Shown: one piece after another, positions 5,875 through 7,431 of the stretch
Position numbering within the stretch: the stretch's first letter is position 1
Layout of the letters: each line of letters begins with the position of its first letter
Virus record (IMG/VR): IMGVR_UViG_2571042053_000009
Direction: 5' to 3' (one strand)
DNA: 7,431 nucleotides
DNA from: a virus
Taxonomy: Duplodnaviria > Heunggongvirae > Uroviricota > Caudoviricetes
The notes under the pieces: model-generated
Database searches by the model: none
What the model saw: the letters and a program-made list of their open reading frames with translations, nothing else
Told to the model about the DNA's origin: nothing
Program-made: the position numbers and the translations under genes

Positions 5875-6777
5875 ATGACCACTATTACCAAAGAACGTAT
5901 TGAATTGTTCATTAAAAATCCGCTTGAAAACGGGCTTACCCGTGGTGAACAAATGGAACTGGCACGGATTGCGCTGGCATCGCTGGAAGCAGATCCAGTT
6001 AAACGAGTTAACTCAGATCAGATGCGCCGAGTCTGCTTAGAAGCTAATCGCCATTTAGATAAATATGACGCGATGGCGAAAGAGGTAAATAAGTTGCTTG
6101 GACGCATCGCCCCGCCAGCGCCGGTAGTGCCGGAAGAAGCAACTCCGGAAAACGTAGAAATGCTCTCTGGCTATGTTTCCACGTACAAATTAACCGATAG
6201 CGAGCGCGATATTGCTGCCGAAATATGGAACGCCTGCCGCACCGCCATGCTTCAGTCCGGAAACTTTCGGGAAAGCAAGAATTCGTCAACCAATAATTTT
6301 CGGGAAATCCCGGAAGCGTCAACCAGCTCTCCGGTAACTCCGGCTCTTCTGCCTGGTGGTTTCACCATTGAGGAGGCGAAGGAATTACATGAAGACCTGG
6401 TACGCAGCCACATAAGCAAGGCCTTAAGTGGCGAAAAGATGAAAAAGAAAGATCGCGATGCTGATTTGCGCTGGATTCATGGCGTTATAGTTCAGGCAGC
6501 GTGGTTTGTAAAAGCATCACTGGAGCAGAATGCACTATCGGGCAACTATCCGGTAACTCCGGATAGTTGGATAAGCTGTAGTGAGCGAATGCCGGATACC
6601 AAAACAGCCGTTCTTGTTGCCAGGGAGTTTGACAGGAAAGGTGACTGGCGAATGAAATGGGCTACTTACATCCCGGGGCATCCTGACGCTAATGATGGGT
6701 GGATAATTCCTGGTGCGTCGTGGAAACCGTCACACTGGATGCCGCTACCAGAACCGCCGCAGGAGGTGCGCCAATGA
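5875..6777 (+). CDS. phage protein with DUF551-like C-terminal domain, 300 aa
   Basis: Strong RBS AAGGAG. The C-terminal segment (MPDTKTAVLVAREFDRKGDWR...WMPLPEPP) resembles the DUF551 domain common in enterobacterial prophage proteins (recalled, not verified). Confidence 0.75.
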   Translation: MTTITKERIELFIKNPLENGLTRGEQMELARIALASLEADPVKRVNSDQMRRVCLEANRHLDKYDAMAKEVNKLLGRIAPPAPVVPEEATPENVEMLSGYVSTYKLTDSERDIAAEIWNACRTAMLQSGNFRESKNSSTNNFREIPEASTSSPVTPALLPGGFTIEEAKELHEDLVRSHISKALSGEKMKKKDRDADLRWIHGVIVQAAWFVKASLEQNALSGNYPVTPDSWISCSERMPDTKTAVLVAREFDRKGDWRMKWATYIPGHPDANDGWIIPGASWKPSHWMPLPEPPQEVRQ

Positions 6778-6857
6778 TCTGGCCTGAAGCCTTTGCAATT
6801 ACAGGCGTTGCTATAGCTATTGATTTTTTAGTATATGTTATTTGTCGGTGGGGGTAA
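6774..6857 (+). CDS. candidate hydrophobic mini-protein, 27 aa (MIWPEAFAITGVAIAIDFLVYVICRWG)
   Basis: ATG overlaps the stop of the DUF551-like gene (ATGA) with AGGAGG 7 nt upstream. Single predicted transmembrane helix. Below the ORF-track cutoff. Confidence 0.35.
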   Translation: MIWPEAFAITGVAIAIDFLVYVICRWG

Positions 6858-6892: not shown

Positions 6893-6997
6893 ATGTCGGA
6901 TGATATTTCACTGGCAATGGAAGGTGCTCTGGCTGTTATTGCTGTTGTGGGCGTTTACTGCCTGGTTGTGTTTTTGATGGATCGACTAGGGAACTGA
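6893..6997 (+). CDS. candidate hydrophobic mini-protein, 34 aa (MSDDISLAMEGALAVIAVVGVYCLVVFLMDRLGN)
   Basis: Strong SD AAAGGAGGGA 3-12 nt upstream of ATG 6893. Single predicted transmembrane helix. Below the ORF-track cutoff. Confidence 0.4.
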   Translation: MSDDISLAMEGALAVIAVVGVYCLVVFLMDRLGN

Positions 6998-7005
6998 ATT
7001 CATTA

Positions 7006-7027
7006 CGATATGGGAATTCCCATATCG
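7006..7027. repeat. perfect 22-bp palindrome CGATATGGGAATTCCCATATCG
   Basis: Exact reverse-complement symmetry, 9 bp after the 34-aa ORF stop and upstream of the hok leader. No flanking T-run on either strand, so more likely a protein-binding site than a terminator. Confidence 0.5.
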
Positions 7028-7085
7028 GGTAAAAACGGTTTGCGGTAAAGCGAGAGTTAAGTAGAATTGCTGCGGGTGCTTGAGG

Positions 7086-7121
7086 CTGTCTGCCTCGGGC
7101 ATGCCACCGTAAGGCAGACAG
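7086..7121 (+). promoter_or_regulatory. structured element in the hok leader: 10-bp inverted repeat enclosing the GGCATGCC palindrome
   Basis: CTGTCTGCCT (7086..7095) pairs with AGGCAGACAG (7112..7121). hok-family mRNAs are known to rely on extensive 5' secondary structure; assigning this to a named element is inference. Confidence 0.3.
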
Positions 7122-7242
7122 AGAAAAGCCCCAGTTAACATTACGCGTCCTGCAAGACGCCTAACATTAATCTGAGGCCAATTTCATGCTAGACACATGT
7201 AGGTTAGCCTCTTACGTGCCGAAAGGCAAGGAGAAGCAGGCT

Positions 7243-7398
7243 ATGAAGCAGCAAAAGGCGATGTTAATCGCCCTGATCGTCATCTGTTTAACCGTCATAG
7301 TGACGGCACTGGTAACGAGGAAAGACCTCTGCGAGGTACGAATCCGAACCGGCCAGACGGAGGTCGCTGTCTTCACAGCTTACGAACCTGAGGAGTAA
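7243..7398 (+). CDS. hokD: Hok/Gef-family type I toxin, 51 aa
   Basis: Translation MKQQKAMLIALIVICLTVIVTALVTRKDLCEVRIRTGQTEVAVFTAYEPEE matches my recollection of HokD (RelF): TM helix plus conserved RKxLCE motif. An in-frame upstream ATG at 7186 gives the 70-codon ORF in the track; this may be a mok-like leader frame. Confidence 0.85.
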   Translation: MKQQKAMLIALIVICLTVIVTALVTRKDLCEVRIRTGQTEVAVFTAYEPEE

Positions 7399-7405
7399 GA
7401 GACCA

Positions 7406-7427
7406 GGCGGGGGAGAAATCCCTCGCC
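7406..7427 (+). other. 3' stem-loop of the hok transcript (GGCGGGGGA-GAAA-TCCCTCGCC)
   Basis: 9-bp stem with one G-U pair, 8 nt after the hok stop. hok-family mRNAs carry 3' fold-back elements; the window ends at 7431, so any downstream U-run is not visible. Confidence 0.35.
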
Positions 7428-7431
7428 ACCT

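What the first reader, a model, noticed from the sequence alone, without database searches (positions are those of the whole stretch)
7030..7431. Hok-family type I toxin locus with an apparently intact structured leader inside the prophage
The toxin ORF is accompanied by more than 200 bp of upstream leader with nested inverted repeats, a 70-codon in-frame upstream start at 7186, and a 3' stem-loop. If the HokD identification is right, this copy differs in context from the K-12 one, which I recall sits behind relBE with truncated upstream regulation. A candidate minus-strand Sok-type promoter (TTAACA around 7267..7262 and TAGCCT around 7243..7238) would give an antisense RNA across the 7186 start region; this is a weak call.
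Basis: partly seen in the sequence, partly recalled or inferred. Interest (0 to 1): 0.6.

Follow-up and report, generated by a model that had tools for sequence, protein, structure and literature searches.

The report
Ordinary prophage hokD/sok toxin–antitoxin cassette
This is a regular copy of the well-known hok/sok "host-killing" toxin–antisense RNA cassette carried by lambda-like prophages of E. coli. It is found in about three quarters of sequenced E. coli genomes, and a 93%-identical relative has already been tested in the laboratory.

Summary
Window 7243-7398 encodes a 51-aa Hok/Gef toxin whose DNA is identical to K-12 hokD. It is preceded by a complete hok-type leader: promoter, tac, ucb, mok SD and start, Sok target hairpin, dcb. 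It is followed by the 3' stem-loop that protects the processed mRNA. Rfam's hok-leader model (named 'sok') matches end to end (118 bits, E 3e-27).

But K-12 is the exception. The full leader occurs in 4133 of 5426 complete E. coli genomes, up to 9 copies each; the relE-hokD junction occurs in 1165.

Mapping the published sokW primers puts -35 at 7229-7224, -10 (TAACCT) at 7206-7201 and the start near 7194. That gives an RNA of about 75 nt ending near 7118.

The window ends before the fbi element and terminator, so "intact" cannot be fully shown.

Verdict: already known, low interest. One side observation is that the Sok recognition loop is hypervariable.

The parts
7040..7067 (+). hok mRNA promoter: -35 TTGCGG 7040-7045, 16-nt spacer, -10 TAGAAT 7062-7067
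   Evidence: Positional homology. The -10 lies 6 nt before the +1 G, as does the experimentally validated TATGAT of R1 and TATAAT of K-12 hokC. It is identical in Sp5 hokW. It falls below the 9/12 threshold of the promoter scan. Inferred, not tested.
7074..7085 (+). hok mRNA 5' end (+1 about 7074) and tac element GGGUGCUUGAGG
   Evidence: Start of the full-length Rfam match. Invariant in 67 unique relatives. Pairs with ucb when fbi is absent. Pairs with fbi CCUCAACGCACCC when the tail from a relative is appended. The tac/fbi helix is 100% paired in 66 relatives.
7086..7121 (+). hairpin 1, enclosed by the tac stem
   Evidence: Folds; inverted repeat I1; two pair positions with compensatory changes (helix 2).
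7128..7134 (+). ucb (anti-SD box) GCCCCAG
   Evidence: Pairs with mok SD 7172-7178 in the full-length fold and with tac in the truncated fold. Invariant.
7134..7171 (+). hairpin 2; its complement is the Sok terminator hairpin
   Evidence: Helix 3 is 99.6% paired, with 3 compensatory pair positions.
7174..7177 (+). mok Shine-Dalgarno GAGG
   Evidence: Aligned to the R1 mok SD GAGG, where mutations abolish toxicity. Invariant.
7186..7398 (+). mok reading frame (70 codons, in frame with hok); ATG 7186-7188
   Evidence: The ATG is invariant in 67 unique relatives. It is in frame in 59; in 8 the ORF is 19 codons and ends in an AUGA overlap with the hok start. K-12 mokC is annotated in frame in the same way.
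7180..7205 (+). Sok target hairpin (loop CUAGACA 7189-7195), closed by SD/dcb pairing 7174-7178 with 7207-7211
   Evidence: Fold. 16 of the 17 alleles in this set fold into an SD/dcb-closed hairpin of -11.5 to -15.5 kcal/mol (the remaining one -9.6), with compensatory stem changes. This is the hypervariable block.
7118..7194 (-). predicted Sok antisense RNA (about 75 nt; 5' end about 7194, 3' end about 7118)
   Evidence: The 5' end lies 8 nt past the mok A, as for annotated K-12 sokC; the R1 Sok 5' end implied by the T7 primer lies 9-10 nt past it. The sokW Northern probe maps to 7165-7194. Folds as a 9-nt free 5' tail, a long hairpin and a U-rich tail, z -6.68. Not demonstrated for this sequence.
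7201..7229 (-). Sok promoter: -35 TTGCCT 7229-7224, 17-nt spacer, -10 TAACCT 7206-7201
   Evidence: The published promoter-less sokW mutation (primers YO-421/422) replaces the bases equivalent to 7200-7206. The functional sokW clone begins at 7246. The T, A and final T of the -10 and all six -35 bases are invariant or nearly so in 67 relatives.
7228..7233 (+). hok Shine-Dalgarno AAGGAG
   Evidence: 9 nt before the ATG at 7243. This is the only upstream element that K-12 hokD retains.
7243..7398 (+). hokD toxin gene (51 aa)
7406..7427 (+). 3' stem-loop (9 bp, loop GAAA) expected to protect the 3'-processed, active mRNA
   Evidence: Fold. Helix 8 is 99.3% paired in relatives. In R1 the equivalent last stem-loop of truncated hok mRNA is needed for stability. 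It is not the terminator.

Best explanation
[quoted passage not shown] It sits in the early-right (nin) region of a Rac/Qin-like lambdoid prophage and is cut by the window end just before its fbi element and terminator.

Proposed mechanism, taken from the R1 paradigm and the Sp5 homologue:
1. A stable hok mRNA starts near 7074.
2. In the full-length form, its 5' tac pairs with the 3' fbi, and ucb hides the mok ribosome-binding site. The mRNA is therefore neither translated nor bound by Sok.
3. Slow 3' trimming removes fbi. Tac then pairs with ucb, the mok SD moves into the SD/dcb stem, and the target hairpin is presented.
4. An unstable antisense Sok RNA of about 75 nt (7194 to about 7118, minus strand) binds through its free 5' tail. 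It blocks mok translation and marks the duplex for RNase III.
5. hok translation is coupled to mok, so Hok is made only when Sok decays and is not renewed. Hok then depolarises the inner membrane.

Shown here: toxin identity, homology of every leader element, and the two alternative folds. Shown for a 92.6%-identical relative: toxin activity, antitoxin activity, and the Sok -10. Inferred for this copy: transcription, processing, and the biological role. The candidate roles are helping lysis and release after prophage induction (as for hokW), prophage retention, or phage exclusion.
For: - Toxin identity: Pfam HOK_GEF 1.2e-23; PHROG 251; CDS identical to K-12 hokD; RefSeq names the gene hokD in the listed hits, and 4720 genomes match the region.
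- Leader: full-length Rfam match, 118 bits.
- Folds: the window alone gives tac/ucb plus SD/dcb, the active form. The window plus 62 nt from a 99%-identical relative gives tac/fbi plus ucb/SD, the inactive form.
- Conservation: helices are conserved, with compensatory changes in hairpins 1 and 2; covariation exceeds all 500 shuffles and all slid controls.
- Experimental relative: Sp5 hokW-sokW is 92.6% identical and is a working type I TA whose sokW -10 maps to 7200-7206.
- Sok: the predicted RNA folds as tail, terminator hairpin and U run, z -6.7.
- The mechanistic elements are defined.
Against: - The fbi element and terminator are outside the window, so completeness is only inferred from relatives.
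- There are no expression data for this sequence.
- Native chromosomal hok loci that were tested (hokA, hokB, hokC) did not give post-segregational killing or rifampicin activation (summarised). An intact-looking cassette may therefore still be weak or inactive.
- The promoters are weak consensus matches (7-8 of 12) and were not picked up by the scan.
Confidence: 0.9

Rival explanations
1. The cassette is an intact-looking but functionally silent relic. This would match the K-12 chromosomal hok loci, which do not mediate killing from their native context.
For: Native hokA, hokB and hokC loci failed to mediate post-segregational killing or rifampicin activation. K-12 hok loci are widely regarded as inactivated. 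Both promoters are weak consensus matches.
Against: Every functional element inside the window is identical or conservatively changed relative to the experimentally active hokW-sokW. The mok ATG, SD, tac, ucb and Sok -10/-35 are invariant across 67 unique relatives, while neighbouring loop bases vary freely. That pattern points to purifying selection. The window's own allele occurs in 1763 genomes.
Confidence: 0.15
2. Sok is transcribed from the reader's promoter (-35 TTAACA 7267-7262, -10 TAGCCT 7243-7238). The antisense RNA would then start near 7231 and also cover the hok SD.
For: The hexamers exist with an 18-nt spacer. TTAACA matches the -35 consensus at 5 of 6 positions.
Against: In the Sp5 homologue, a clone beginning at the 7246 equivalent lacks this -35 yet supplies functional sokW. 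Mutating the 7200-7206 equivalent abolishes protection. The K-12 sokC annotation and the R1 Sok 5' end put the start 8-10 nt downstream of the mok A. TAGCCT matches the -10 consensus at only 3 of 6 positions. Both hexamers are fixed by the hok start codon or coding sequence, and the -35 becomes TTAGCA in a minority of the relatives (visible in the alignment).
Confidence: 0.05
3. The 70-aa in-frame product (Mok-Hok fusion) is itself the functional protein, rather than mok acting only as a translated leader.
For: mok is in frame in 59 of 67 unique relatives. Sakai ECs_1245 and K-12 mokC are annotated as the long form.
Against: Codons 2-4 are the most variable part of the transcript. In 8 of 67 relatives mok is a 19-codon ORF ending in an AUGA overlap with the hok start. 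In R1, mok is out of frame and only translation up to the hok start is needed. HokW and HokD expressed from their own ATG are toxic.
Confidence: 0.1

Closest known systems
hokW-sokW of E. coli O157:H7 Sakai prophage Sp5 (Takada et al. 2021, PMC8621323)
   Same: 92.6% nucleotide identity over promoter, leader, CDS and 3' stem-loop. The hok -10, tac, ucb, mok SD/ATG, dcb and Sok -35/-10 are identical. The toxin is 51 aa and 46/51 identical. The host element is a lambdoid prophage. mok is 70 codons and in frame.
   Different: Five C-terminal residues differ (…FTAYEPEE here, …FVDYESEK in HokW). The Sok-target loop allele differs (CUAGAC here, CUGAAC in Sp5). Sp5 carries the cassette at the far right end of the prophage on the opposite strand to the late genes. 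Here it lies between a DUF551 gene and, in relatives, the DUF968/RusA/Q genes.
hokD (relF) of E. coli K-12, Qin prophage
   Same: Identical coding DNA. The 3' UTR is near-identical (one mismatch in the 33 nt within the window). Same prophage neighbourhood downstream (ydfU/DUF968, Q).
   Different: K-12 keeps only about 14 nt upstream of the ATG. relBE replaces the promoter, tac, ucb, mok, the Sok target and the Sok gene. The K-12-type junction is in 1165 genomes; the full leader is in 4133.
hokC/mokC/sokC (gef) of E. coli K-12
   Same: Same architecture, including the in-frame mok. The annotated Sok 5' end lies 8 nt past the mok A. The tac (GGGUGCUUGAGG) is identical.
   Different: Hairpin 2, and hence Sok, is about 18 nt shorter (sokC is 59 nt). 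The Sok-target and dcb sequences diverge. It is a chromosomal locus with IS186 downstream.
hok/sok (parB) of plasmid R1
   Same: All named elements align: -10, tac, ucb, mok SD, mok ATG, Sok -35/-10 around dcb, and the hok SD. Both use a two-conformation mRNA switch.
   Different: The toxin is about 44% identical. In the R1 reference, mok is out of frame (58 nt between the starts). Hairpin 1 is longer and hairpin 2 shorter. R1 is a plasmid whose cassette has a demonstrated plasmid-stabilising role.

Membership tests
[quoted passage not shown] | Small (about 50 aa) hydrophobic Hok/Gef toxin | tested here: met
   Pfam PF01848 E 1.2e-23, covering profile positions 1-42 of 42. PHROG 251. DNA identical to K-12 hokD.
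[quoted passage not shown] | Upstream overlapping mok frame with its own SD, whose translation reaches the hok start | tested here: met
   GAGG at 7174-7177. ATG at 7186, 57 nt before the hok ATG, with no intervening stop. The ATG is invariant in 67 relatives.
[quoted passage not shown] | Structured leader with tac, ucb and dcb elements able to form tac/ucb and SD/dcb stems | tested here: met
   Rfam covariance model: full-length match, 118 bits. The MFE and centroid folds reproduce that structure, z -3.65.
[quoted passage not shown] | 3' fbi element complementary to tac, followed by a terminator | not testable with these tools
   The window ends at 7431, before it. In 66 relatives, CCUCAACGCACCC follows 24 nt further on and pairs with tac in 100% of cells. 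The source contig beyond 7431 is not available.
[quoted passage not shown] | cis-encoded antisense Sok RNA with its own promoter, covering the mok SD and start | tested here: inconclusive
   The promoter and RNA are placed by homology to the experimentally mutated sokW -10 and the probe, to annotated sokC and to the R1 Sok 5' end. The fold is as expected. No transcript data exist for this sequence.
[quoted passage not shown] | Toxicity neutralised by Sok; 3' processing activates the mRNA | not testable with these tools
   Needs experiments. Toxicity and neutralisation were shown for Sp5 hokW-sokW, where smaller hokW RNAs were also seen but not proven to be the processed form. Processing was shown for R1.
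HokD (as against other Hok paralogues) | Sequence identity to K-12 HokD/RelF | tested here: met
   The CDS is identical to b1562 at the DNA level. PGAP names it hokD in the listed RefSeq hits. The NCBIfam Hok-subfamily and HokA models score below their cut-offs, so the name rests on identity, not on an HMM.

The most novel reading that the evidence does not exclude
The block covering mok codons 2-4, which is also the Sok-target loop and the 5' tail of Sok (about 7181-7199), is by far the most variable part of an otherwise highly conserved transcript. There are 23 alleles in 128 loci that encode nearly the same toxin, and the hairpin is kept by compensatory changes. These alleles could be specificity classes under diversifying selection. 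Each co-resident prophage would then keep a private Sok/hok pair, and losing that prophage could not be rescued by the Sok of another copy. This would be analogous to incompatibility groups of plasmid antisense RNAs. The evidence here does not exclude this reading. The only test I could run (copies per genome of single alleles) gave what random assortment would give.
Probability: 0.25. Interest if true: 0.4.

Novelty: already known. Interest (0 to 1): 0.12.

Why it matters
It matters little as a discovery. The hok/sok family has been the textbook type I toxin-antitoxin system since the 1980s, prophage enrichment of hok is documented, and a 93%-identical prophage cassette has been characterised.

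The practical points are these:
- K-12 hokD is a derived, truncated form of a cassette that is normally complete.
- RefSeq annotates only the toxin CDS at these loci, leaving mok, the leader and Sok unannotated.
- Rfam's 'sok' model actually matches the hok-sense leader.
- Anyone cloning or deleting this prophage region should expect a working killer locus.

Tried and rejected
- The promoter/terminator scan found neither promoter nor the Sok terminator. Both promoters match only 7-8 of 12, and the Sok hairpin is longer and more bulged than the scan allows. The elements were therefore placed by homology.
- I looked for hokW in the unannotated gap of Sp5 near the nin region (L086 9100-9600). Nothing was there. 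It lies at the right end of Sp5 as ECs_1245.
- R1 accession KY749247 was not in the collection. I used an IncFII plasmid with an identical Hok instead. That plasmid has an in-frame mok variant, unlike the R1 reference.
- A literature search for 'sokD' returned nothing relevant.
- tac/fbi covariation cannot be tested within the hokD subfamily, because both elements are invariant.
- The sokT helix taken from the window's fold is only 68% paired on the alignment, because indels in the hypervariable loop put it out of register. Folding each allele separately resolved this.
- A genome contigs pattern scan gave only 8 hits: Escherichia/Shigella plus probable contaminants. It was no use for within-genome comparison.
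- Test for exclusion of the same allele within a genome: places per genome were 1.17, 1.08 and 1.16 for alleles A, B and D, against 2.03 for all leaders. My rough binomial expectation under random assortment is 1.1-1.3, so the test is inconclusive. The same-genome IMG/VR pairs were too few to judge: of four with both alleles called, one pair shared an allele and three differed.
- NCBIfam has no HokD-specific model that passes its cut-off.

Full report
**What is in the sequence**

The region 7030-7431 contains a 51-codon ORF on the + strand (7243-7398). An in-frame ATG 57 nt upstream (7186) gives a 70-codon ORF. The 51-aa product matches Pfam HOK_GEF over the whole profile (E 1.2e-23) and PHROG 251 'MokW-like host killing' (E 2.8e-33). 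Its DNA is identical, base for base, to hokD (b1562) of E. coli K-12. RefSeq annotates the same gene as hokD in the listed hits, and 4720 genomes match the region. Rfam's covariance model RF01794 matches 7074-7248 on the + strand over all 157 model positions. The score is 118 bits against a gathering score of 59, E 3e-27. That family is called 'sok', but the match runs from the hok mRNA 5' end to the hok AUG on the toxin strand. What it recognises is the hok leader. None of this is a chance resemblance.

**Anatomy of the leader**

Alignment with Sp5 hokW, K-12 hokC/sokC and an R1-type plasmid hok/sok, together with the element definitions in the R1 literature, places every canonical element.

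- hok promoter: -35 TTGCGG 7040-7045 and -10 TAGAAT 7062-7067. The -10 lies 6 nt before the +1 G at 7074, the same spacing as the validated TATGAT of R1.
- tac: GGGUGCUUGAGG, 7074-7085.
- Hairpin 1: 7086-7121.
- ucb: GCCCCAG, 7128-7134.
- Hairpin 2: 7134-7171.
- mok SD: GAGG, 7174-7177.
- mok ATG: 7186.
- Sok-target hairpin: 7180-7205, with loop CUAGACA.
- dcb: GCCUC, 7207-7211.
- hok SD: AAGGAG, 7228-7233.
- 3' stem-loop: 9 bp, 7406-7427.

Folded alone, the leader adopts exactly the Rfam/'truncated, active' conformation: a tac/ucb stem enclosing hairpin 1, and an SD/dcb stem enclosing the target hairpin. Its energy is -63.1 kcal/mol, z -3.65, and no shuffle of 200 did as well.

The window ends at 7431, so it happens to contain roughly the 3'-processed form. 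I appended the next 62 nt from a 99%-identical relative. The minimum-energy fold then switches to the 'full-length, inactive' form: tac pairs with CCUCAACGCACCC (fbi), and ucb pairs with the mok SD. The sequence therefore encodes the two-state switch that defines hok mRNAs. It corresponds to the last stem-loop of the processed mRNA, which in R1 protects against 3' exonucleases.

**Comparison with K-12 and how common the locus is**

In K-12 the similarity to the window stops about 14 nt upstream of the hokD ATG, where relE abuts. K-12 therefore lacks the promoter, tac, ucb, mok, the Sok target and Sok. But K-12 is the minority state.

- The promoter-plus-leader segment (7040-7242) is present at 80% coverage or more in 4133 of 5426 complete E. 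coli genomes, with up to 9 copies.
- The K-12-type relE-hokD junction is present in 1165 genomes.
- Among 82 IMG/VR prophage or phage loci encoding the identical toxin, 79 have the full leader and 3 the K-12 form.

**Prophage context**

The setting is a Rac/Qin-like lambdoid prophage. Upstream lie a repressor/cro-type pair, YdaT, ydaV, and DUF1627, DUF977 and DUF551 genes. In relatives the downstream genes are DUF968, RusA and Q.

The window's closest whole-length relative is 99.7% identical overall, yet 19 of its 28 differences fall within 7088-7423. The cassette allele has therefore been exchanged by recombination.

**Experimental precedent and the Sok gene**

The hokW-sokW locus of Sakai prophage Sp5 has been characterised experimentally (Takada et al. 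2021).

- HokW is toxic.
- sokW transcribed from its own promoter neutralises it.
- A promoter-less mutant loses protection.
- sokW disappears and HokW appears after mitomycin C treatment, in a RecA-dependent manner.
- Deleting the locus halves phage release.

I located the locus as ECs_1245. It is 92.6% identical to window 7040-7431, with 46 of 51 toxin residues identical.

The paper's primer table can be mapped onto the window.

- The promoter-less mutation replaces the 7 nt equivalent to 7200-7206. That is TAGGTTA on the + strand, or TAACCTA on the Sok strand.
- The sokW Northern probe corresponds to 7165-7194.
- The functional sokW clone begins at the equivalent of 7246.

These bases are identical in the window. 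The Sok promoter is therefore -35 TTGCCT (7229-7224), a 17-nt spacer, and -10 TAACCT (7206-7201). The start is near 7194, 8 nt past the A of the mok ATG. The annotated 5' end of K-12 sokC lies at the same 8-nt offset. The R1 Sok 5' end implied by the T7 primer of Faridani et al. lies 9-10 nt past the A.

The 3' end, by homology with sokC, is about 7118, giving an RNA of about 75 nt. That RNA folds as a 9-nt free 5' tail, a long hairpin and a U-rich tail (z -6.68).

However, they lie about 37 nt too far into hok. Their -35 is absent from the functional sokW clone. Both lie in bases fixed by the hok start codon or coding sequence. The predicted RNA 'over 7170-7235' should instead be 7118-7194.

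**Conservation and structure support**

The analysis used 67 unique relatives.

- The following are invariant or nearly so: tac, ucb, the mok SD, the mok ATG, dcb, the Sok -35, the T, A and final T of the Sok -10, and the hok SD.
- For the full-length structure, 92.4% of cells are paired, against 36-47% when partners are slid. Nine pairs show double-sided changes, more than in any of 500 shuffles.
- tac/fbi is 100% paired but invariant, so it gives no covariation within this subfamily.

mok is in frame with hok in 59 of the 67. In the other 8 it is a 19-codon ORF whose stop overlaps the hok start as AUGA. Taken with the R1 data, what matters is translation up to the hok start, not the Mok protein. 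The in-frame start is therefore ordinary for this subfamily; K-12 mokC and Sakai ECs_1245 are annotated the same way.

**Side observation**

Within the transcript, the most variable stretch by far is 7181-7199. This covers mok codons 2-4, which is also the target-hairpin loop and the 5' tail of Sok. Mean entropy is 0.92 bits per column there, against 0.46 or less elsewhere. I found 23 alleles in 128 loci. In the 67-sequence set there are 17 alleles; 16 of them fold into an SD/dcb-closed hairpin of -11.5 to -15.5 kcal/mol (one gives -9.6), with compensatory stem changes.

One reading is relaxed constraint. Another is diversification of Sok/hok recognition among co-resident prophages. My only available test was inconclusive. 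Single alleles occur 1.08-1.17 times per genome that has them, against 2.03 for all leaders. That is about what random assortment predicts.

**Verdict**

The identification as a HokD-type type I toxin locus with a full leader is right. The Sok promoter call is wrong by about 37 nt. 'Intact' is unproven at the 3' end, because fbi and the terminator lie outside the window. The element is a common, already described and experimentally studied kind of prophage cassette, so the finding is ordinary. The biological role of this copy remains inferred; the candidates are a lysis or release aid on induction, prophage retention, or phage exclusion.

Noticed in passing
window 7181-7199 (and the same columns in L006-L167): The Sok-target loop, which is also mok codons 2-4 and the Sok 5' tail, is hypervariable: 23 alleles in 128 loci encoding nearly the same toxin. 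The hairpin is maintained by compensatory changes, while the flanking leader is almost invariant. The window's allele is in 1763 E. coli genomes.
   Followed up: partly
window 7006-7027: Perfect 22-bp palindrome CGATATGGGAATTCCCATATCG immediately outside the left edge of the hok cassette. No T run follows on either strand. Many cassettes lose homology to the window at 7020-7030. Function unknown.
   Followed up: no
window 6774-6857 and 6893-6997: Two very small hydrophobic ORFs (27 and 34 aa) lie between the DUF551 gene and the hok cassette. The 34-aa ORF is annotated in RefSeq as hypothetical protein WP_001278450.1. Neither has a Pfam, NCBIfam or PHROG match.
   Followed up: partly
window 7074-7248 (+): Rfam RF01794, named 'sok antitoxin', matches the toxin-sense strand from the hok mRNA +1 to the hok AUG. 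The model describes the hok leader rather than Sok. RefSeq shows no annotated feature under the leader in the top hits.
   Followed up: partly
window 7088-7423 compared with L004 10088-10420: The closest whole-window relative (99.7% identical) has 19 of its 28 differences inside the hok cassette. The cassette allele has been swapped by recombination within an otherwise near-identical prophage.
   Followed up: yes
L004 10455-10520 (also L044): In this relative the fbi element is followed directly by unrelated AT-rich DNA and another gene. The usual terminator hairpin is absent.
   Followed up: no
window 7381-7383: Tyr47 codon UAC lies in a UUACGAA context. [quoted passage not shown]
   Followed up: no
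L169, L170, L171, L174: Exact matches to the E. coli hokD leader pattern occur on short contigs labelled Xanthomonas pisi, a 'Scatousia' MAG, a Haemophilus MAG and a soil Proteobacteria MAG. These are probably contamination or mis-binning.
   Followed up: no
plasmid hits H40-H43: E. coli plasmids of about 93-98 kb carry a hokD-type cassette at about 88% identity, so the cassette is also found on plasmid replicons.
   Followed up: no
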